DNA of 56,304 nucleotides from a virus (Duplodnaviria; Caudoviricetes). The DNA lies in IMG/VR virus record IMGVR_UViG_3300006922_000026, positions 1 through 56,304 of that record, one strand, 5' to 3'. The position numbers were made by a program, and so were the translations under genes. The stretch's first letter is position 1. Each line of letters begins with the position of its first letter. The notes beneath the pieces are model-generated. The model was not told the origin of the DNA and made no database searches. It saw only the letters and a program-made list of their open reading frames with translations. Shown here piece by piece: positions 1,874 through 38,432 of the stretch.

Positions 1874-3219
1874 GCTTTTTCTCCTTTATACTCACGAAAC
1901 GACTTAAATCTTGGAAAACGTAAACTATACGTTTCCGAGTCTTGCGACTGTGTTCGAGCATCTGCTCTAATTTCAATTAACTGACCAATGAGACTATCAC
2001 GTGCAGTCCAGTACTCATCACGTTGACTATCAGTGAAGCCGCTCCCACAGTTAAGGTGATAATTGTATCCATCATCTTCTCCTTCTACTATTACGGCACC
2101 TAATCTTCCTGCATTACGTCCAGTACCTTCCTCGACGTCAACGACTTTTAGTGTAATCTCAATAAATGGTTTTGCCTTTAACCAAGCATGTGTTCGCTTA
2201 CATTCGTAGGGTGCGTCAATGTCTTTGATCATTACACCTTCATAACCACCGTCTACGGCCGTCTTATTAAGCTCTACAAAGCGTTCTTGGCCTTCGGGAG
2301 TGTCTAAGTCTACATCTTCCCACTCAAGTGCTTGTACGTGCTTTAAAACGTCCTGGTTGCTTTCTACCCAATGTTTAGTAATTGCACTTCTTGTTGACTG
2401 TGGTTTGTCCCAACCACCTTGTTTGAAATCGGATAATGGAATAGTATCAAACAAATGCAATACTGCATCTTTGGCTGTACCACCACTCTTTCTATGTACC
2501 TGTTTCATTAAGTCTTGGAAGTTAGCACTCATTACCTCACCGTCTAACACAAGGTCATATGGTGCAGGCTTATCTTTGAGTACTGTTTTAATTTCTTCAA
2601 TGATGTGATCAAAGTTATGAAACTGCTTACCATTACGACTAAACATTTCTACTTTGTCACCTTGTATAATTGTAATAACTCTTACGCCATCAAGTTTAAC
2701 TTCAATTTGTTTCTTACCTGACATCTTCTTTTCATGATTGGCAGAGTCGTGTGCTAATGCACAAGTGAATGTAGGGATAACATATTTTGTTTCACCCTTC
2801 ATGTTAAATCTTTTAGCAACTTTGTTTACTGTCTTTTCACTTACTCCACAACGTAAATCTTTAATAAGGATCCTACGATAAAAACCATTCCACTGATCTG
2901 CCGTTGCTGAACTCATTACAAGTTCGATAGCATCACGTGCCGCATGTCCTGTAAGTTCTCTTGCAATTAGTTTATCTGCAAGTTCTTTGAATACTGGCCA
3001 AGCACAACCTTGTGCTGATAGCACTTCATTCTCTGCTTTTTCTGGAACTTGTTTAACGCCAAATGTTACAAGTGGGTCAAGTGCCATTGTTACACCTTCG
3101 AAGAACTCATCAAGTCCTTCACCCATAGCACTGAATACGATAGTTTCTTTGTCTAACCTACCGTTGTGCTGTTCAAGTTTGTAAATTACGTCCTGTGGTT
3201 GTGTTCTCATGTTTTTCAT
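1870..3219 (-). CDS. lig: ATP-dependent DNA ligase
   Basis: Motif I EVKLDGVR, motif III LDGE, motif IV EGVMIK, motif V WLKAK, C-terminal OB fold with SLRFPRF. Confidence 0.95.
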   Translation of the reverse strand: MKNMRTQPQDVIYKLEQHNGRLDKETIVFSAMGEGLDEFFEGVTMALDPLVTFGVKQVPEKAENEVLSAQGCAWPVFKELADKLIARELTGHAARDAIELVMSSATADQWNGFYRRILIKDLRCGVSEKTVNKVAKRFNMKGETKYVIPTFTCALAHDSANHEKKMSGKKQIEVKLDGVRVITIIQGDKVEMFSRNGKQFHNFDHIIEEIKTVLKDKPAPYDLVLDGEVMSANFQDLMKQVHRKSGGTAKDAVLHLFDTIPLSDFKQGGWDKPQSTRSAITKHWVESNQDVLKHVQALEWEDVDLDTPEGQERFVELNKTAVDGGYEGVMIKDIDAPYECKRTHAWLKAKPFIEITLKVVDVEEGTGRNAGRLGAVIVEGEDDGYNYHLNCGSGFTDSQRDEYWTARDSLIGQLIEIRADARTQSQDSETYSLRFPRFKSFREYKGEKA

Positions 3220-3915: not shown

Positions 3916-4971
3916 TTATTGGTAAGGGTCAATATCCAAATACTTACCCCATTCGGAATAGTAATGGCGCATACCTACTTCATCATGGATAGTTCCATTT
4001 TCATGTCTACCATGTAGTATGCGTCTATTCTCTGTTCCTTCACGCATTGTAGTACCTTGCCCAGCAACTCCGATTAGATCCTCGTGGAGGTTGCGACCAA
4101 ATGGTCCCCATATACTGTTATGATGTTTGATTCGTGTCAAACGTTCTTCTTTAGTATCTTTTTTTAGTCCGTATCCCCTAAACTCAATCAGTACACGGTT
4201 AGGACCTAATGGAGTTACTGAGTCACTGCGATATGCACTTCCACGTAGATTAAAATTGAATCCAGGAAACAAGTCTACCATATACCATTGGTTGGGCGGT
4301 AGGTTAGGAAAGGACAGTTCGCCTCTATCTTCGAAGCCGTCATACTCCTCATAGTTTACTGTGAAACTGCTTACGTTTACATGCCCGTTATCAAACGGTA
4401 TATTCTTACGTGCAAAGTATTCATCGTTGAATCCACTTACACGATTAAAGTAGTGCATGAAGTCATGATAAAATTCACTGTTGGTATCATGCCATAGTTT
4501 GTAGTTTGTATCTATGATTGCTTTGTGGTAATGGAACACTTCCATTTCTTCTGTGTCAATAGCATCAGCAATGCAATCAAATGCACCTGCTGTCCATTGT
4601 TCTACACTCTGCGTAGGATTAGGATCAAGTGTTACCCATACCATACCTCCGTGCTTTACTTCGCTGTGTAGTTGTGGCTCAACTGTTACAATAGGTGCTT
4701 CGAGTGTACCAGCAGGACCGTTTATACCGTAGTTACGATATGCTCTAACACCGTTGCCTGTATTATATGCAATAACATCAACGCCTGCTATCTGTGTTGT
4801 TCGGTAGTCTAATTCGTTATACATCTCTGAGATGTGACACATAGGTACCCATACTTTACTAAAGATACGTTCTTGCTCTTGTGCAAATATTTCTGGGTTG
4901 TTATATGCTGAACTGCTGATTGATTCTACGTTTGGTTGTGCTAACCAACTCTTATGATTACGTGGTGGCAT
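3916..4971 (-). CDS. Ring-hydroxylating (Rieske-family) oxygenase alpha subunit homolog lacking Rieske cluster ligands
   Basis: N-terminal Y..PEIF..EQERIF..W; catalytic domain NYKLWHDTNSEFYHDFMH, LFPGF and EDL..Q (2-His-1-carboxylate); no CxH...CxxH. Confidence 0.85.
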   Translation of the reverse strand: MPPRNHKSWLAQPNVESISSSAYNNPEIFAQEQERIFSKVWVPMCHISEMYNELDYRTTQIAGVDVIAYNTGNGVRAYRNYGINGPAGTLEAPIVTVEPQLHSEVKHGGMVWVTLDPNPTQSVEQWTAGAFDCIADAIDTEEMEVFHYHKAIIDTNYKLWHDTNSEFYHDFMHYFNRVSGFNDEYFARKNIPFDNGHVNVSSFTVNYEEYDGFEDRGELSFPNLPPNQWYMVDLFPGFNFNLRGSAYRSDSVTPLGPNRVLIEFRGYGLKKDTKEERLTRIKHHNSIWGPFGRNLHEDLIGVAGQGTTMREGTENRRILHGRHENGTIHDEVGMRHYYSEWGKYLDIDPYQ

Positions 4972-5057: not shown

Positions 5058-5134
5058 TGGCGCACCCGACAGGACTCGAACCTATTACCTTATGTTCCGC
5101 AAACATACGCTCTATCCAGATGAGCTACGGGTGC
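5058..5134 (-). tRNA. tRNA-Arg (GCG)
   Basis: GCACCCG/CGGGTGC acceptor stem, D-arm TAGCTCATCTGGATAGAGC, anticodon arm TATGT-TTGCGGA-ACATA, GTTCGAGTC T-loop, encoded CCA. Confidence 0.92.
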
Positions 5135-5324: not shown

Positions 5325-5353
5325 AGTATATAAGATCGCACCCGTATTGTCAA
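5325..5353 (-). promoter_or_regulatory. Sigma70-type promoter
   Basis: TTGACA-17 nt-TATACT. Confidence 0.75.
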
Positions 5354-5365
5354 GTATTATTTTGG

Positions 5366-5557
5366 TTACTTGTTATCATGGTTAATCGATATATGTTTCA
5401 AAACTTTACCAGAATTTGGTCCAGTTGTAACAGTATACCCAGTCGTACCATTTCCATACACGTTTACTTCGCTACGAGTTTTCATAAGGATTTTCTCCTT
5501 GCGTTCTCTCATTTTTTGCTCACGGTATGATTTAAGTAGGTAATCGTATCTGTTCAT
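5366..5557 (-). CDS. Small basic protein downstream of glutamine riboswitch; possible IF7/IF17-like glutamine synthetase inactivating factor
   Basis: AGGAG RBS; RKEKILMKTRSEVNV resembles the IF7 core RQQSMLSRAAAEIGV by eye. Confidence 0.6.
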   Translation of the reverse strand: MNRYDYLLKSYREQKMRERKEKILMKTRSEVNVYGNGTTGYTVTTGPNSGKVLKHISINHDNK

Positions 5558-5580
5558 TACACTCTCCTTTTTACAGTTAA

Positions 5581-5630
5581 GTGCGTTCCTTCGGCTTTGC
5601 GCCTACTTCCGGCCTTTTTTCGGCTGAACG
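5581..5630 (-). ncRNA. glnA-type glutamine riboswitch
   Basis: CGUUC-A-GCC(loop)GGC-C-GGAAGUA-GGC(loop)GCC-GAAG-GAACG-CAC: P1 CGUUC/GAACG, three-way junction and E-loop GGAAGUA/GAAG of the glnA RNA motif. Confidence 0.85.
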
Positions 5631-5638
5631 TTGTATAT

Positions 5639-6016
5639 CTATTTAGTCTTAGTCTGGTAGTCTTTTATTGCTGATTTGATTGCATCTTCGGCAAGTACAC
5701 TGCAATGTATCTTAACTGGCGGTAAAGCAAGTTCTTCTACAATGTCCATATTCTTAACTGCTGATGCTTGATCTAATGTCATTCCTTTTACCATTTCAGT
5801 TACTAAACTTGAACTTGCTATTGCACTACCGCAACCGTAAGTTTTGAATTTAGCATCTACAATAACATTATCTTCAACCTGGATTTGTAATTTCATTACA
5901 TCACCACATGCAGGAGCACCTACCATACCTGTTCCTATGTTTTGCTGTTTTGGATTGAAAGAACCTACGTTGCGTGGATTTTCGTAATGGTCAAGTACTT
6001 TTTCGGAGTATGCCAT
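5639..6016 (-). CDS. iscU: Fe-S cluster scaffold IscU
   Basis: YSEKVLDHYENPRNVG, GAPACGD, GCGSAIAS, LPPVKIHC. Confidence 0.97.
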   Translation of the reverse strand: MAYSEKVLDHYENPRNVGSFNPKQQNIGTGMVGAPACGDVMKLQIQVEDNVIVDAKFKTYGCGSAIASSSLVTEMVKGMTLDQASAVKNMDIVEELALPPVKIHCSVLAEDAIKSAIKDYQTKTK

Positions 6017-6069
6017 AATAGTCTCTGTAGTTTAACTACATTTATTTAGTAGAGTAGTTTTAAGAAGTC

Positions 6070-6100
6070 AAAAAAATAGGCGACACAAAGGCCGCCTATT
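6070..6100 (-). terminator. Intrinsic terminator
   Basis: AATAGGCG/CGCCTATT stem followed by T-tract on minus strand. Confidence 0.75.
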
Positions 6101-6120
6101 TAAGAAAATAACAAATGCTA

Positions 6121-7776: not shown

Positions 7777-7852
7777 TGGTGCCGATTCACAGATTCGAAC
7801 TGCGGACCTACTGATTACAAATCAGTTGCTCTACCAACTGAGCTAAACCGGC
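7777..7852 (-). tRNA. tRNA-Thr (TGT)
   Basis: GCCGGTT/AATCGGC acceptor stem, ACTGA-TTTGTAA-TCAGT anticodon arm, GTTCGAATC, CCA. Confidence 0.95.
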
Positions 7853-21584: not shown

Positions 21585-21723
21585 TAATTGCCCTCCACAT
21601 GTATTTACCGTAGATCGAATCAGATTTCACCAGGTACAAAAATCTGACGGTCACATTAATTTGTTACGTTTAAATGTTGGTTTTTTGACGGTCTGGTGAT
21701 TTAATCAGTACATAAATATGTGT

Positions 21724-23772
21724 ATGAAATACATAACTCACTGGGCAACTGCCTTACTCACTTTAGCATTTCTTACATTCTACGGATATTCAGATCCATA
21801 CGTTAAACAAATATTAAGATTAAAAAGTTTTGATGTTGTTCAACGTTCCGATACTCCTGTGATTAGCGAAGATATTGCTATACTTGAGATAGATGAGAAA
21901 GCGATTGAGCAGTATGGACAATGGCCTTGGAAACGTTCAGTACTTGCAGATGTTATATGGAAGTTGCGTGAGTCAGGTGCAGGAGTAATTGTACTACCTA
22001 TATTGTTTTCAGAGGAAGATAGACTTGGTGGTGACATGGAACTTGCTCAAGCAATAGCCGGGAACGCTGTTGTAATTGCACAAGTAGGAACAACTCAAGC
22101 AAACAAGAACGCAGTACCAAGAGGTGTTGCCAAGATAGGTGATCCTATGCCTTGGTTATTTGAATGGCCAGGTATGTTAGGACCAATAGAGTTATTAGGA
22201 ATGAACGCTGATGGTGTTGGTGTTGTAAACACTGTACCAGAGATAGATGGTGTTGTACGTAGAATGCCACTTATAATGCGTGTAGGTGATGAAACATATC
22301 CTGCAATGGCAATAGAAACAATACGTGTTGCTACAGGCGATCCAAGTTATCAAGTTAAAACAGAACAAGGCGGCATAACAAAAATGCGTGTTCCTGCATA
22401 TGCAACTATACAGACAGATGCTAACGGACGCATATGGTTACGTTGGAACAAACAATTTCCAACATATAGTTTAGTAGAAGATGATTACACACAACTTGCA
22501 GGCAAGACTGTTATTATAAGTCCTACAGCAGAAGGACTCAACAGTATCATTGCTACACCTAACGGAGAACGTTATTCACACTTGCTAACTGCAACAGCAT
22601 TGCAAACAATTATCAATGGCGATACTATTGTTAGAATGGACTATGCTACGTTTGTAGAGTGGGCAGGAACTGCTTTACTTGGTCTTATAATCATCTTAAT
22701 GGCTCTTAAAACACCGTATTGGCTTGTAGGCACTGTTATAGTTGCTGTACCAATAAGTGCTGTGTATGGAGCATATTTTGCTTTTACAAGGCATTTACAA
22801 CTATGGGATTGGAGTTGGCCGGTGATTGTAGTTGTAATCGTCGGATTACATGCAGTGTTTAATAGGTTCGCAAAAGAGTTCTTTGAGAAACAAGCAATTA
22901 AAAAACAGTTCGCAGGATACGCATCTCCAACAGTTGTGCGTATGCTACAAGAGAATCCAGCACTAATCAAAGACGGTATGAAGAAAGAAGTTAGCATACT
23001 GTTTTCAGACTTACGAGGCTTTACACCATTAGGTGAATCATTTGGTGATGATGTAAAAGGCCTAACAAAAATTATGAATGGCTACATGGACGCAATTACG
23101 CAACCTGTACTTGATGCTGATGGTATGATTATTAAGTACATCGGCGATGCAAGTATGCACATACATAATGCACCGATAGAAGATCCTGAACACCCTAAGA
23201 CAGCAGTTCGTACAGGATTGAATATGTTAACAGCAGTGGAGAAATTTAATGATAAAATCACAGCAGAAGGACGGCCGCCAATTGGCATGGGAGCAGGCAT
23301 CAATACAGGACTTGGCTATCTTGGAGAAATGGGTAGCACCGCAAGACATTCGTACGATGTACTCGGAGACGCAGTCAGTACAGCCGCAAGAATCGAAAGC
23401 AAATGTAAAGAATACGGATGCCTACTATTAGTAGGTGATGCTACGTATAAGCAAACCAAAGACGATTTCTTTTACTTAAAAGTAGATGAACTACAAGTAA
23501 AAGGCAAGAGTGTTGGTATTATTATATGGACTGTGCTTGATGGTATGAATACTAATTCAGATCGCAAGAGTCAGAAAATGCACCAAGAAATGCACGAAGC
23601 ATACAGAGCCCAGAAGTTTGATGAAGCAATATGGATCTGTGAAAAACTAATGAGACACTTTGATGGCAAAATGGAAGGCTATTATAAGATGTGGATTGAA
23701 CGTTGTGAGTTCCAGAAAACACAAGACTTACCTAAAGACTGGAACGGTATAATGATTGCTACTTCGAAGTAG
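21724..23772 (+). CDS. CHASE2-domain class III adenylate cyclase
   Basis: IDEKAI..GQWPWKR and DGVVRR (CHASE2), three TMs, FSDLRGFT, KYIGDA, GINTG, YDVLGDAVSTAARIES; start probably ATG 21724 after ATAAATA. Confidence 0.95.
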   Translation: MKYITHWATALLTLAFLTFYGYSDPYVKQILRLKSFDVVQRSDTPVISEDIAILEIDEKAIEQYGQWPWKRSVLADVIWKLRESGAGVIVLPILFSEEDRLGGDMELAQAIAGNAVVIAQVGTTQANKNAVPRGVAKIGDPMPWLFEWPGMLGPIELLGMNADGVGVVNTVPEIDGVVRRMPLIMRVGDETYPAMAIETIRVATGDPSYQVKTEQGGITKMRVPAYATIQTDANGRIWLRWNKQFPTYSLVEDDYTQLAGKTVIISPTAEGLNSIIATPNGERYSHLLTATALQTIINGDTIVRMDYATFVEWAGTALLGLIIILMALKTPYWLVGTVIVAVPISAVYGAYFAFTRHLQLWDWSWPVIVVVIVGLHAVFNRFAKEFFEKQAIKKQFAGYASPTVVRMLQENPALIKDGMKKEVSILFSDLRGFTPLGESFGDDVKGLTKIMNGYMDAITQPVLDADGMIIKYIGDASMHIHNAPIEDPEHPKTAVRTGLNMLTAVEKFNDKITAEGRPPIGMGAGINTGLGYLGEMGSTARHSYDVLGDAVSTAARIESKCKEYGCLLLVGDATYKQTKDDFFYLKVDELQVKGKSVGIIIWTVLDGMNTNSDRKSQKMHQEMHEAYRAQKFDEAIWICEKLMRHFDGKMEGYYKMWIERCEFQKTQDLPKDWNGIMIATSK

Positions 23773-37771: not shown

Positions 37772-37845
37772 TGGCAGGAGACCAAGGAATTGAACCCTGT
37801 CTTACTGGGTTGGAGCCAGTCGTGCTACCGTAACACTTGTCTCCT
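37772..37845 (-). tRNA. tRNA-Trp (CCA)
   Basis: AGGAGAC/GTCTCCT acceptor stem, ACTGG-CTCCAAC-CCAGT anticodon arm, GTTCAATTC, CCA. Confidence 0.92.
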
Positions 37846-37849
37846 TAAA

Positions 37850-38115
37850 GTGCAACTTTTCTGTTGCCAGGTAAGTTGCCAACCCCGTCACATAGTTAGA
37901 CTATGCGGCAAGAGCAAAGTTTTCGTTTGCGTCTATAGTTTTGCTTGATTTACGGTCATCGCCTACCGGTAACTCCACGTTCTCTCTTACACCTGTCGAT
38001 CCTATTTCGCCCCCATCATAAGCACACTAATTAATGTGTGCTTAATGTGTTTATGGTGGAGGCGTCGGGTATCGCACCCGAGTCCAGTTTGCAGTTGATT
38101 GGCTTCAACGTTACA
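37850..38115 (-). ncRNA. ssrA: Two-piece (circularly permuted) tmRNA, tag ANENFALAA
   Basis: Acceptor piece ending GACTCGGGTGCGATACCCGACGCCTCCACCA (CCA at 38054) precedes an intervening hairpin and the coding piece GGGGGCGAAATAGGATCGAC (from 38014); G3:U70 pair; tag ORF 37930-37901; outer ends approximate. Confidence 0.93.
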
Positions 38116-38132
38116 ATACTATTTAAACATCT

Positions 38133-38432
38133 TTAGTTGAAGATGTCAAGTTCTTTTTTTAATTTTATTGCTTTTTTTGGCTGTTTAATTGGTTCTAACC
38201 AACTATCTGCTATGTAGGCTTGGGGACTTGGCCCAAGTTGAGTTGAAATGTCGTCTGCTTCTATCCACCAATAATGGTCAGATATTAAACATTGACAGGG
38301 CATTCCTCTGAATTGGAATTGCTCACCCTTTTCGTACTGTCCTATATACTCTTTTACTTTCACTATCAGTCCAACATTTTGCGGTCGAATTGAAAAAGTG
38401 ATGTGGGCTACATCGCCTTGAGTACACTTCAT
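38133..38432 (-). CDS. Hypothetical protein
   Basis: MKC..GD.A...N.G..V...DSWLEPI pattern seen in phage proteins. Confidence 0.7.
   Translation of the reverse strand: MKCTQGDVAHITFSIRPQNVGLIVKVKEYIGQYEKGEQFQFRGMPCQCLISDHYWWIEADDISTQLGPSPQAYIADSWLEPIKQPKKAIKLKKELDIFN

What the first reader, a model, noticed from the sequence alone, without database searches (positions are those of the whole stretch)
5366..5630. Glutamine riboswitch controlling an IF7-like small protein in a phage
Seen: a compact glnA-motif RNA (P1 CGUUC/GAACG, E-loop GGAAGUA/GAAG) ends 12 nt before the AGGAG RBS of a 63 aa basic ORF, with a TAAATA motif just upstream. Known: cyanobacterial glutamine riboswitches switch on gifB (IF17), a glutamine synthetase inhibitor. 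By eye, RKEKILMKTRSEVNV aligns with IF7 RQQSMLSRAAAEIGV. Inference: a phage of an apparently non-cyanobacterial host senses host glutamine and tunes host glutamine synthetase or nitrogen flux. The protein similarity is short and could be chance.
Basis: partly seen in the sequence, partly recalled or inferred. Interest (0 to 1): 0.85.

Follow-up and report, generated by a model that had tools for sequence, protein, structure and literature searches.

The report
Phage glutamine riboswitch controls small protein
A marine phage carries a genuine glutamine-sensing RNA switch that should turn on a 63-residue protein copied from its likely SAR11 host, but that protein shows no detectable relation to the cyanobacterial glutamine-synthetase inhibitor IF7.

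Summary
The RNA is real. Rfam RF01739 (glutamine riboswitch) matches window 5632-5580 (-) at 56 bits against a cut-off of 35. It lies 9 nt behind a conserved T4-late-promoter-like box (CTAAATA). It is followed by a covarying 5-bp helix (CACUU/GAGUG) that covers the 3' end of the Shine-Dalgarno sequence of a 63-aa ORF (5557-5366). This is the same platform design as the cyanobacterial gifB ON-switch.

The ORF is a real gene (median dN/dS 0.19). All 26 related viral loci that have upstream DNA carry the riboswitch.

The IF7 reading is not supported. There is no DUF4278 domain, and hhalign against riboswitch-linked cyanobacterial IF7-like proteins gives 0.8-0.9% probability. That is no better than other unrelated mini-proteins score against this family.

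The ORF belongs to phrog_32989. This small-protein family was found in 148 of 201 Pelagibacteraceae genomes, in 0 of 300 other genomes of the same class, and in Pelagibacter phages. Its function is unknown.

Glutamine riboswitches in Melnitz-like and pelagimyophages are already published, but were assigned to the tmRNA. In Melnitz the riboswitch in fact precedes an unannotated 32-aa ORF.

Side finding: most SAR11 chromosomal homologues use a different, covarying double-pseudoknot leader that has no Rfam match.

The parts
5640..5646 (-). T4-late-promoter-like box CTAAATA. It lies 9 nt upstream of CGUUCA and overlaps the TAG stop of the iscU-like gene.
   Evidence: Sequence. All 18 unique relatives have ACTAAATA or GATAAATA here. 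Among 109 unique viral glutamine-riboswitch instances, 66 have TAAATA ending <=14 nt before CGTTCA, with a peak at 6-8 nt. The shuffled expectation is 3.4%. In bacterial loci it is 11 of 119, with no peak. The T4-like late consensus TATAAAT is quoted in the methods passage of PMC9004378.
5580..5632 (-). Glutamine riboswitch aptamer (RF01739, type 1 / glnA RNA), with stems P1, P1a and P2.
   Evidence: 56.0 bits (gathering score 35), whole model matched. Relatives keep the P1a and P2 stems through changes on both sides. P1a: GCC/GGC, GGC/GCC, UCCC/GGGA, ACC/GGU, ACUC/GAGU, UCUU/AAGA. P2: GGC/GCC, AGC/GCU, GGU/ACC, AGGC/GCCU. These were read from the printouts.
5560..5583 (-). Expression platform. 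CACUU (5583-5579), directly 3' of P1, pairs with GAGUG (5564-5560), which overlaps the 3' end of the Shine-Dalgarno sequence.
   Evidence: The MFE fold forms this helix. In 68 of 89 unique viral linkers there is a helix of >=5 bp anchored within 3 nt after P1 and ending within 16 nt of the start codon, against 17% in shuffles. The types covary: CACCU/GGGUG 23, CACUU/GAGUG 11, CACUUU/GAAGUG 5, CAUCUUU/GGAGAUG and others. The same design occurs in 37 of 42 bacterial small-ORF leaders, mostly CGCCUC/GAGGCG in cyanobacteria.
5564..5568 (-). Shine-Dalgarno AGGAG, 6 nt before the ATG.
   Evidence: Sequence. The linker is nearly invariant in 18 unique relatives.
5366..5557 (-). 63-aa basic ORF ('family A', phrog_32989): N-terminal helix plus a conserved core R.EV.(I/V)NGNGT.GY.V..G.N.GKVL.H.
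   Evidence: ORF; 22 homologues of about 63 aa; phrog_32989, E 3.8e-9; alignment; median dN/dS 0.19 over 117 pairs. AF2 helix at residues 3-27 (pLDDT 83-87), rest low confidence; 123 clusters at E<=1e-3.
5325..5353 (-). Sigma-70-like promoter (TTGACA, 17 nt, TATACT), 13 nt after the ORF's stop. It starts the next unit (53-aa ORF 5303-5142 and tRNA-Arg 5134-5058) and so marks the 3' boundary of the riboswitch unit.
   Evidence: 11 of 12 consensus matches; tRNA-Arg.
5639..6016 (-). Upstream iscU-like gene (NifU_N). It is context only and is a lineage-specific insertion between a terminator and the riboswitch unit.
   Evidence: PF01592, E 1.2e-52; terminator at 6101-6074. The same terminator sequence lies directly before ACTAAATA plus riboswitch in L005/L006. 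IscU lies directly upstream only in L004 among the viral loci searched.

Best explanation
This is a stand-alone late-gene cassette of a Melnitz/HTVC008M-like marine myophage. It consists of a T4-type late-promoter box, a type-1 glutamine riboswitch at the very 5' end of the transcript, a 5-bp helix that ties the nucleotides just 3' of P1 to the 3' part of the Shine-Dalgarno sequence, and a 63-aa ORF.

At low glutamine the helix (CACUU/GAGUG) should hide the ribosome-binding site. Glutamine binding is expected to pull the conserved C that follows P1 into the aptamer core and melt the helix, switching translation ON. This follows what was shown for gifB in Synechocystis and proposed for its anti-RBS pairing.

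The product is a phage copy of a small basic protein family (phrog_32989). That family is single-copy and near-universal in SAR11 (Pelagibacteraceae) and common in Pelagibacter phages. It is a helix followed by a conserved glycine-rich tail. It is not an IF7/IF17 homologue. Its target is unknown. I take it to be a glutamine-status effector that binds a host macromolecule.

Shown: the aptamer match, the conserved linkage of riboswitch and ORF, the covarying anti-SD helix, purifying selection on the ORF, and the family's distribution.
Inferred: the ON polarity, late timing, a SAR11-type host, and any role in nitrogen metabolism.
For: Aptamer: 56 bits against a cut-off of 35.

Linkage: 26 of 28 related viral loci have RF01739 directly upstream of the ORF. 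The other 2 (L003, L030) have no upstream DNA in the locus.

Platform:
- The linker is almost invariant.
- Covarying anti-SD helix in 68 of 89 unique viral linkers, against 17% in shuffles, and in 37 of 42 bacterial small-ORF leaders.
- The helix forms in the MFE fold, z = -2.6.
- In passages I read, Klahn 2018 (PMC6212724) states that the riboswitch raises gifB expression with glutamine, and that the C after P1 and the nucleotides downstream of it can pair with the RBS.

Late promoter: a box conserved in 18 of 18 unique relatives, and in 66 of 109 viral instances at 5-13 nt, against 3.4% expected.

Real gene: median dN/dS 0.19. 22 close homologues. 123 clusters at 50% identity.

Host link:
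- 148 of 201 genomes of the family of a Pelagibacteraceae MAG have one match.
- 0 of 300 other genomes of its class have one.
- 42% identity to the chromosomal copy of that MAG, which also carries RF01739 in a housekeeping gene context.
- tblastn with a divergent member hits 17 Pelagibacter phages and 1 uncultured phage.

Phage lineage: a 684-aa protein is 71.6% identical to Melnitz and 48% to HTVC008M.

Contigs of RNA libraries from 3 studies cover the unit. One 288-nt contig spans 5363-5649 with 1 mismatch. This shows presence only, not proof of transcription.
Against: - No ligand binding or reporter data exist for this RNA. ON rather than OFF rests on analogy with gifB.
- The MFE fold does not form P1. 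It pairs the 5' strand of P1 with AUGAAC at the start codon. Thermodynamics alone therefore does not give the aptamer fold, and the free-state structure is uncertain.
- The box is CTAAATA, not the full T4 consensus.
- No homologue of the Melnitz late-transcription coactivator, or of 4 other Melnitz proteins, was found in this 56-kb fragment: 0 of 5 at E<=1e-3.
- The box overlaps the iscU stop. An RNA-library contig bridges iscU and the ORF, so read-through transcripts are possible.
- Six isolate Pelagibacter phages carry the family without any riboswitch: 0 Rfam matches of any family at E<=1 in the 6 loci. So do 18 of the 20 best SAR11 loci. Glutamine control is therefore not intrinsic to the family.
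- The protein model is poor (mean pLDDT 65). No family library gives it a function.
- The closest isolate phage infects OM43, not SAR11.
Confidence: 0.72

Rival explanations
1. One reading: the 63-aa protein is a glutamine-synthetase inactivating factor (an analogue or very distant relative of IF7/IF17). The phage would shut down host GS when glutamine is high.
For: - It has the same riboswitch class and the same anti-SD platform as cyanobacterial gifB-type genes.
- In cyanobacterial loci of my genome scan, the riboswitch precedes IF7-like proteins of about 50 aa and DUF4278 proteins.
- The protein is small, basic and helical with a disordered tail.
- SAR11-type genomes have a GS, and many alphaproteobacterial SAGs and MAGs place tandem glutamine riboswitches before glnA and amt. 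The regulon is therefore nitrogen assimilation.
Against: - hhalign probability is 0.8-0.9%. Unrelated mini-protein families reach up to 2.3% against the same profile.
- No DUF4278 in 0 of 14 family members scanned, whereas 12 of the 56 other riboswitch-linked ORFs scanned have it.
- The best-conserved part is the glycine-rich C-terminal core, not the basic helix.
- Most SAR11 and podophage copies lack the glutamine riboswitch.
- Two SAR11 subtypes sit 6-66 nt behind an IscA/ErpA-type gene instead.
- Melnitz has the same riboswitch and platform before another mini-ORF, yet its authors state that neither OM43 nor Melnitz encodes glnA (PMC9004378 section 8).
Confidence: 0.2
2. The protein is a nucleic-acid- or ribosome-binding mini-protein, for example an RNA chaperone or an autoregulator of its own leader. 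Glutamine control in phages would be just one of several ways of timing it.
For: - The net charge is about +7 and the protein is a single helix plus a flexible tail.
- Host copies carry an elaborate conserved leader of their own, a double pseudoknot. That is typical both of riboswitches and of protein-autoregulated leaders.
- Gene neighbours in SAR11 vary and include RNA-related genes: RlmN-like, PNPase, Rho and a tmRNA piece. These names are my reading of translations and of the Rfam match; they were not searched against a library.
Against: There is no RNA-binding domain hit in Pfam or NCBIfam. The same two leaders (RF01739 and the double pseudoknot) serve two unrelated small-protein families. 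This fits a shared metabolite signal better than autoregulation by one protein.
Confidence: 0.15
3. The riboswitch is an OFF switch, or it acts on transcription (attenuation) rather than on translation initiation.
For: Polarity was not measured. In marine heterotrophs the same aptamer precedes glnA and amt, with long linkers of about 90 nt. There, negative control would make physiological sense.
Against: No terminator-like hairpin followed by a U-run lies between the aptamer and the ATG; the gap is only 22 nt. The helix that covaries involves the SD. The platform matches the gifB type, which is reported as glutamine-induced.
Confidence: 0.08
4. The published reading for this phage group: the glutamine riboswitch controls the tmRNA (ssrA) or downstream late functions, not a small ORF.
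For: The abstract and section 8 of PMC9004378 state that the Melnitz ssrA is 'controlled by a glutamine riboswitch'. In Melnitz the aptamer lies 8 nt after the end of the tmRNA match.
Against: - In the window the tmRNA (37849-38153) is 32 kb from the riboswitch.
- In Melnitz the aptamer lies 3' of the tmRNA. It is followed by the same CACUUAAC...GGGGAGAGUGUUAUG platform and an unannotated 32-aa ORF (L002 3037-3135).
- A Melnitz-like contig, L071, has the same arrangement.
Confidence: 0.03

Closest known systems
Type-1 glutamine riboswitch of Synechocystis gifB (Klahn et al. 2018, PMC6212724; Rfam RF01739)
   Same: The aptamer family is the same. The aptamer is a single copy directly before a small ORF. 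The conserved C and the nucleotides after P1 pair with the ribosome-binding site, and this helix is seen in 37 of 42 bacterial small-ORF leaders. The expected polarity is glutamine-ON.
   Different: This one is in a phage of a heterotroph. It sits behind a late-promoter-like box rather than an NtcA-regulated promoter. The anti-SD strand is CACUU rather than CGCCUC. The downstream protein has no DUF4278 and no detectable IF7/IF17 similarity.
Glutamine riboswitch of OM43 phage Melnitz, Pelagibacter phage Mosig and pelagimyophage MAVGs (Buchholz et al. 2022, PMC9004378)
   Same: The phage lineage is the same. RF01739 matches at 52.8 bits in Melnitz. The expression platform is the same. A two-piece alpha-type tmRNA is present in both genomes.
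   Different: In the window the riboswitch is 32 kb from the tmRNA and precedes a 63-aa family-A ORF. In Melnitz it follows the tmRNA and precedes an unannotated 32-aa ORF of another family. The paper assigns control to ssrA and names no downstream ORF in the parts I read (abstract, section 8, 12 passages).
GS inactivating factors IF7/IF17 (gifA/gifB) and IF17-like DUF4278 peptides behind glutamine-II (Downstream-peptide) riboswitches
   Same: They are small basic proteins whose synthesis is coupled to glutamine by a riboswitch. 12 of 70 viral riboswitch-linked ORFs that I scanned do carry DUF4278.
   Different: Family A has no DUF4278. hhalign probability is below 1%. Its conserved core (NGNGTSGY..K.G.N.GK) has no counterpart in the 14 cyanobacterial IF7-like proteins aligned. 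Its taxonomic home is SAR11 and its phages.
phrog_32989 (PHROGs v4, unknown function)
   Same: The window protein matches at E 3.8e-9. 13 of 70 riboswitch-linked ORFs match it. Annotated 'hypothetical protein' copies occur in Pelagibacter phages HTVC019P, HTVC011P, HTVC168P, Eistla and Kolga.
   Different: Those isolate copies are 53-65 aa as annotated, lack the C-terminal H...NN tail, and have no riboswitch: 0 Rfam matches of any family at E<=1 in the 6 loci.

Membership tests
Glutamine riboswitch type 1 (Rfam RF01739, glnA RNA) | Covariance-model score at or above the curated gathering score | tested here: met
   56.0 bits against 35, model positions 1-53 of 53, E 1.1e-9. Repeated on the whole record at E 2.6e-13.
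Glutamine riboswitch type 1 (Rfam RF01739, glnA RNA) | P1/P1a/P2 three-stem layout with conserved junction strands CGGAAGUA and GAAGGAACG | tested here: met
   The alignment to the consensus shows all junction letters identical to the consensus.
Glutamine riboswitch type 1 (Rfam RF01739, glnA RNA) | Stems kept by compensatory changes among relatives | tested here: met
   Read from the printouts (23 unique aptamers before family-A genes). At least 6 Watson-Crick types for P1a and 4 for P2; P1 is invariant.
Glutamine riboswitch type 1 (Rfam RF01739, glnA RNA) | Selective binding of L-glutamine | not testable with these tools
   Needs in-line probing or ITC.
gifB-type translational ON platform | Nucleotides directly 3' of P1 pair with the ribosome-binding site | tested here: met
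   CACUU 5583-5579 pairs with GAGUG 5564-5560 in the MFE fold. 68 of 89 viral linkers have such a helix, against 17% of shuffles, with covarying types. 37 of 42 bacterial small-ORF leaders have it.
gifB-type translational ON platform | Expression rises with glutamine | not testable with these tools
   Known only for Synechocystis gifB and a Prochlorococcus element (PMC6212724 passages).
IF7/IF17 GS inactivating factors | Pfam DUF4278 (PF14105), the IF17 and IF17-like marker used by Klahn et al. | tested here: not met
   No Pfam hit at E<=1 for the window protein. None for 14 family-A members within A1 or for 10 SAR11 copies. 12 other riboswitch-linked ORFs in A1 do hit PF14105 (best E 4.8e-7).
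IF7/IF17 GS inactivating factors | Sequence or profile similarity to IF7-type proteins | tested here: not met
   hhalign of A2 against 14 cyanobacterial riboswitch-linked IF7-like proteins (A3): probability 0.8%, E 0.07, and 0.9% on repeat. Other mini-protein families score 0.2-2.3% against A2.
IF7/IF17 GS inactivating factors | Binds and inactivates glutamine synthetase | not testable with these tools
   Needs an enzyme assay or pull-down.
phrog_32989 / 'family A' mini-protein | Profile match and conserved core R..EV.(I/V)NGNGT.GY....G.N.GK | tested here: met
   phrog_32989 at E 3.8e-9, residues 8-54. Invariant R3, R28, G37, T38, G40, G46, H55 in 23 sequences.
T4-type late promoter | TATAAAT(A)-like box a few nt upstream of the transcript start | tested here: inconclusive
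   CTAAATA at 5646-5640 is conserved in 18 of 18 unique relatives and enriched before viral aptamers: 66 of 109 against 3.4% expected. It is not the full consensus, and no start site was mapped.
T4-type late promoter | Phage encodes the late sigma and coactivator (gp55/gp33 type) | tested here: inconclusive
   The Melnitz coactivator has no match in this 56-kb fragment at E<=1e-3. The record is about 20% complete. gp55 was not searched.

The most novel reading that the evidence does not exclude
SAR11 and its phages may run a glutamine-status regulon of mini-proteins. The members seen here are family A, the 48-50-aa family B, and possibly the other riboswitch-linked mini-ORF families. These would be functional counterparts of the cyanobacterial GS inactivating factors but unrelated to them.

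The regulon would be read out by two interchangeable leaders: the known glutamine riboswitch, and a previously undescribed 51-nt double-pseudoknot leader that would be a new riboswitch class for glutamine or a linked nitrogen signal. The phage cassette in this window would then be a host-derived effector that reprogrammes nitrogen assimilation late in infection according to the glutamine pool.
Probability: 0.25. Interest if true: 0.85.

Novelty: new variant of a known kind. Interest (0 to 1): 0.6.

Why it matters
SAR11 is the most abundant heterotroph in the ocean. From recall, not from any call here, it is reported to lack the usual PII/NtrBC nitrogen circuitry.

A glutamine-switched mini-protein shared by SAR11 and many of its phages points to an unstudied layer of nitrogen control. 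It also suggests a way for phages to read the host's nitrogen state.

The analysis has two further consequences:
- It reassigns the published 'riboswitch-controlled tmRNA' of Melnitz-like phages to unannotated mini-ORFs.
- Together, it shows that glutamine riboswitches are widespread in SAR11, SAR86 and SAR116 genomes. This is against the statement that they are exclusive to cyanobacteria.

The double-pseudoknot leader is a directly testable candidate for a new riboswitch class.

Tried and rejected
1. Complex prediction of the window protein (alignment A2) with two copies of a Pelagibacteraceae GS (alignment A6) gave 'no answer'. It is neither for nor against binding.

2. I did not send the AF2 model to a fold search. 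It is one helix plus a low-confidence tail, so matches would be meaningless.

3. tblastn of the window protein itself against isolate phages found nothing at E<=10. A divergent family member did find hits.

4. NCBIfam gave no relevant hit. The ESM Atlas gave only unnamed viral clusters with scores of 0.83-0.86, below its own lead level.

5. A link to Fe-S assembly was considered, because the window gene follows iscU and two SAR11 subtypes follow an IscA/ErpA-type gene. I rejected it as a general explanation for the phage. IscU is directly upstream only in L004 among 147 viral loci searched. In the window it looks like an insertion between a terminator and the cassette.

6. Start-codon sequestration, with the 5' strand of P1 pairing to AUGAAC, was considered. 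The AUGAAC start is not kept in divergent family members, so I treat it as window-lineage-specific at most.

7. RNAalifold on the SAR11 leader alignment recovered only hairpin A. The pseudoknots were counted with my own parser instead.

8. Model R1 found no double-pseudoknot leader in the window or in 95 viral or phage loci.

9. RNA-library contigs show presence only. Parts without cover, and depth, were not used.

10. Literature:
-, 'glutamine riboswitch' + 'phage': 22 papers.
-, 'glutamine riboswitch' + 'Pelagibacter': 7 papers.
-, 'glutamine synthetase inactivating factor' + 'phage': 13 papers, listing only.
-, 'glnA RNA' + viral + riboswitch + small: 3 papers.
- I read the abstract, section 8 and passages of PMC9004378, and passages of PMC6212724, PMC12379486, PMC9964418, PMC9602691, PMC8632094 and PMC2704228.
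- None describes the family-A ORF, the Melnitz mini-ORF or the double-pseudoknot leader.
- Subscription journals and supplements were not visible. Supplementary Tables S1/S2 and Fig. S3 of PMC6212724, and Table S1 of PMC9004378, may list downstream ORFs or phage instances that bear on the novelty claims.
Full report
**Observation**

The window is an IMG/VR virus record of 56,304 bases, estimated about 20% complete. Rfam's glutamine riboswitch model RF01739 matches 5632..5580 on the minus strand over its full length, at 56.0 bits against a gathering score of 35.

From the sequence:
- P1 is CGUUC (5630-5626) paired with GAACG (5588-5584).
- The junction strands CGGAAGUA and GAAGGAACG are identical to the consensus.
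- AGGAG lies at 5568-5564 and the ATG at 5557.
- The ORF 5557..5366 encodes 63 residues, with 13 K/R and 6 D/E.

All parts of the observation are therefore in the sequence as described.

**Is the riboswitch-ORF linkage more than chance?**

The ORF has 22 homologues of about 63 aa in the large protein collection. It has 28 related loci in viral contigs. RF01739 lies directly upstream in 26 of these 28. The remaining two loci simply have no upstream DNA.

In the alignment of 18 unique versions:
- The aptamer stems P1a and P2 change on both sides.
- The coding region accumulates mostly synonymous change. Median dN is 0.073, median dS 0.413, and median dN/dS 0.19 over 117 pairs.
- The 22-nt linker is almost invariant.
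- Every version has ACTAAATA or GATAAATA 6-9 nt before the aptamer, usually preceded by an intrinsic terminator.

The unit ends 13 nt before a near-consensus sigma-70-type promoter (TTGACA, 17 nt, TATACT). That promoter opens the next unit, which holds a 53-aa ORF and tRNA-Arg. The thing is thus a self-contained cassette: terminator, late-type box, aptamer, SD, mini-ORF.

**Expression platform**

Directly 3' of P1, CACUU (5583-5579) can pair with GAGUG (5564-5560), which overlaps the 3' end of the SD. The MFE fold of the leader contains this helix.

I scanned viral contigs for the aptamer's conserved strands.
- In 68 of 89 unique linkers there is a helix of at least 5 bp that starts within 3 nt of P1 and ends within 16 nt of the start codon. 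Shuffled linkers give 17%.
- The helix covaries: CACCU/GGGUG 23, CACUU/GAGUG 11, CACUUU/GAAGUG 5, plus CAUCUUU/GGAGAUG, CAAUCUU/GAGAUUG and others.

The same design is found in 37 of 42 bacterial leaders with small ORFs. In cyanobacteria it is mostly CGCCUC/GAGGCG.

Passages of Klahn et al. 2018 (PMC6212724) make three relevant statements:
- The gifB riboswitch raises expression when glutamine accumulates.
- The conserved C after P1 and its downstream neighbours can pair with the RBS.
- Glutamine binding is postulated to melt that pairing.

I therefore read the window element as a translational ON switch of the gifB type. Polarity is inferred, not shown.

**Timing**

TAAATA ends at most 14 nt before CGTTCA in 66 of 109 unique viral instances, with a peak at 6-8 nt. 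Shuffles give 3.4%. In bacterial instances it is 11 of 119, with no peak. The T4-like late consensus TATAAAT is quoted in the methods of PMC9004378.

This places the aptamer at the 5' end of late transcripts in these phages. Three points weaken it:
- The window's box is not the full consensus.
- The late coactivator of Melnitz has no match in this fragment.
- An RNA-library contig bridges iscU and the ORF, so read-through is possible.

**What the protein is**

Pfam, NCBIfam and PADLOC-independent searches give nothing. PHROGs gives phrog_32989, of unknown function. AlphaFold2 predicts a helix at residues 3-27 (pLDDT 83-87) and a low-confidence tail.

A profile search finds 123 clusters at E<=1e-3.

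tblastn with a divergent member hits 18 isolate or fosmid phages. Seventeen are Pelagibacter phages of podo-, sipho- and myovirus types. I fetched six of them:
- They have no Rfam match of any family, RF01739 included, at E<=1.
- Five have an annotated copy of 53-65 aa (most 53-54).
- HTVC008M has an unannotated, frame-shifted copy.

The genome scan turned up a Pelagibacteraceae MAG in which riboswitch plus family-A gene sit among housekeeping genes.
- A search of that genome's family found one match in 148 of 201 genomes.
- A sample of its class found none in 300 other genomes.
- The window protein is 42% identical to that chromosomal copy.

Family A is therefore a SAR11-core mini-protein that pelagiphages carry.

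The phage itself belongs with Melnitz and HTVC008M. A 684-aa protein is 71.6% and 48% identical to theirs, and has no full-length relative in any other isolate phage. The host is probably SAR11, but OM43 is not excluded.

**IF7 test**

From the genome scan I took 14 cyanobacterial riboswitch-linked proteins of about 50 aa.

hhalign of family A against them gives probability 0.8% and score 12.2.

DUF4278, the IF17 marker, is found in 12 of 70 viral riboswitch-linked ORFs scanned, but in none of the 14 family-A members.

Membership in IF7/IF17 fails. A GS-inhibitor-like function remains possible but untested. Three points weaken it:
- Many copies lack the riboswitch.
- The helix is the less conserved part of the protein.
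- The authors of the Melnitz paper state that OM43 lacks glnA.

**Wider picture**

Viral glutamine riboswitches precede mini-ORFs almost without exception. There were 127 aptamer instances, 104 with a called ORF, and 98 unique proteins. They fall into about ten families:
- A WCF/YCR-type family of 28-49 aa: 23 unique.
- Family A: 16 unique.
- A KQQKEK family: 10 unique.
- Two YRG-repeat groups, which are the DUF4278 hits: 14 unique.
- Family B (...SRPR.EKNI...): 8 unique.
- Smaller families.
- Sixteen instances gave no call, mostly at locus ends or with very short ORFs.

Tandem aptamers occur; 8 first copies were flagged.

In Melnitz the aptamer (L002 2966-3014, 52.8 bits) begins 8 nt after the tmRNA match ends. 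It is followed by the same platform and an unannotated 32-aa ORF at 3037-3135. The record annotates an opposite-strand CDS there instead. The published statement that the riboswitch controls ssrA is thus probably a misassignment.

In bacterial genomes the aptamer occurs in cyanobacteria and also in SAR11-type, SAR116 and SAR86 SAGs and MAGs. There it is often tandem and lies before amt, glnA and GS-like genes.

**Side discovery**

Only 2 of the 20 best SAR11 family-A loci have RF01739. The other 18, and 11 further loci fetched later (L296-L305 and L310; 29 loci in all, 26 of them parsed), have a different leader.

This leader has two hairpins whose loops pair with short stretches downstream:
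- Hairpin A is NCCAU-loop-AUGGN, followed by an A-rich linker and 3-4 nt complementary to loop A.
- Hairpin B is NNNCAU-loop-AUGNNN, followed by UUAAAA or GCAAA and 4-5 nt complementary to loop B.

Both loop pairings covary in 26 sequences: 6 pair types for the first, 4 for the second, and 7 types for stem B. Two more types appear.

Rfam 15 has no match at E<=5.

A covariance model of the short variant (R1) hits 30 of 151 genomes, once each:
- All 17 strong hits lie directly upstream of the family-A places listed.
- I fetched nine of the 13 weaker hits. Five of them are in genomes listed without a family-A match; the other four are not in that call's printed rows. All nine precede a 48-aa ORF.
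- That ORF is 43% identical (E 6e-10) to viral family B, which follows glutamine riboswitches.

Two unrelated mini-protein families are therefore served interchangeably by RF01739 and by this leader. That is the pattern expected if the leader senses the same or a linked signal. It was not found in the window or in 95 viral or phage loci.

**Verdict**

The riboswitch reading is right and its mechanism can be stated with fair confidence. The 'IF7-like' label is not supported.

The riboswitch in this phage group is already in print. New here are:
- the identity and host origin of the regulated mini-protein,
- the late-promoter placement,
- the covarying SD helix,
- the correction of the tmRNA assignment,
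- the candidate new leader in SAR11.

Noticed in passing
SAR11 genome loci L278-L305, L310 and L336-L344 (not in the window): A conserved leader of about 51 nt, with two hairpins whose loops pair with downstream stretches (a double pseudoknot), lies before family-A or family-B mini-protein genes. Both loop pairings and stem B covary. Rfam 15 has no match at E<=5. Model R1 hits 30 of 151 genomes, once each. It is a candidate new cis-regulatory RNA, interchangeable with the glutamine riboswitch.
   Followed up: partly
L002 (Melnitz MZ577097.1), locus positions 2966-3135: The Melnitz glutamine riboswitch begins 8 nt after the tmRNA match ends and precedes an unannotated 32-aa ORF (3037-3135) with the same anti-SD platform. 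The record annotates an opposite-strand 33-aa CDS there. The published 'tmRNA controlled by a riboswitch' is probably a misassignment.
   Followed up: yes
Viral loci L031-L149: Glutamine riboswitches in viral contigs precede about ten families of mini-ORFs of 26-80 aa. Only the YRG-repeat ones carry DUF4278 (12 of 70 scanned). Several contigs have tandem aptamers, for example L044, L048, L087, L115, L131, L137 and L140.
   Followed up: partly
Genome loci L156-L275: The glutamine riboswitch pattern occurs in SAGs and MAGs titled SAR11/Pelagibacteraceae, SAR116, SAR86, Rhodobacterales and Porticoccaceae. It is often tandem and lies before amt (about 428 aa), glnA (about 476 aa), GS-like proteins of 327-336 aa, and mini-ORFs. 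This is at odds with the statement in PMC6212724 that the riboswitch is exclusive to cyanobacterial genomes.
   Followed up: partly
window 5639-6101: The terminator at 6101-6074 has the same sequence as the one that lies directly before ACTAAATA plus riboswitch in L005/L006. In the window and in L004 an iscU-like gene is inserted between terminator and cassette. This looks like a recent auxiliary-gene insertion.
   Followed up: partly
SAR11 loci L313, L316, L318 and L332: Two SAR11 subtypes of family A (MNKFEFKNLVK... and MRDTKHLE...) lie 6-66 nt downstream of a gene ending ...ERCGCGESFK. I recognise this ending from recall as the IscA/ErpA-type C-terminus; it was not searched against a library.
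   Followed up: no
L151 (HTVC008M KC465899.1), locus positions about 1415-1585: An unannotated family-A copy lies between the 'DNA end protector' and 'baseplate tail tube initiator' genes. It is split by a frame shift in an A-run. This may be a sequencing error or a pseudogene.
   Followed up: no
window 37772-38153 (-): A two-piece alpha-type tmRNA (RF01849 at 129.5 bits, RF04321 at 125.6 bits) lies directly next to tRNA-Trp. tRNA-Thr is at 7777-7852 and tRNA-Arg at 5058-5134.
   Followed up: no
window 3916-4971 (-): A 351-aa protein with a ring-hydroxylating alpha-subunit domain has 75.5% nucleotide identity over 644 bases to the methanesulfonate monooxygenase gene of Puniceispirillum (SAR116) phage HMO-2011.
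   Followed up: no
L016, L017, L023, L024, L026, L027 (40-840 nt downstream of the ORF): Related contigs carry Rfam freshwater-2 RNA (RF02980, 52-71 bits). L017 also carries a manA RNA (RF01745, 57 bits). These lie downstream of the family-A gene. The window has neither.
   Followed up: no
L288 (SAR11 genome G182), locus positions 1661-1736: A partial alpha_tmRNA match (33 bits, below the cut-off) begins within the last 30 nt of the chromosomal family-A gene. This recalls the tmRNA-riboswitch-mini-ORF order in Melnitz.
   Followed up: no
window 21718-23772 (+): A 684-aa protein (phrog_35576; annotated in the hit records as an adenylate/guanylate cyclase domain protein) has full-length relatives among isolate phages only in Melnitz (71.6%) and HTVC008M (48%). 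Two 'Acinetobacter phage MD-2021a' records match weakly (25% identity over 29% of the query).
   Followed up: no
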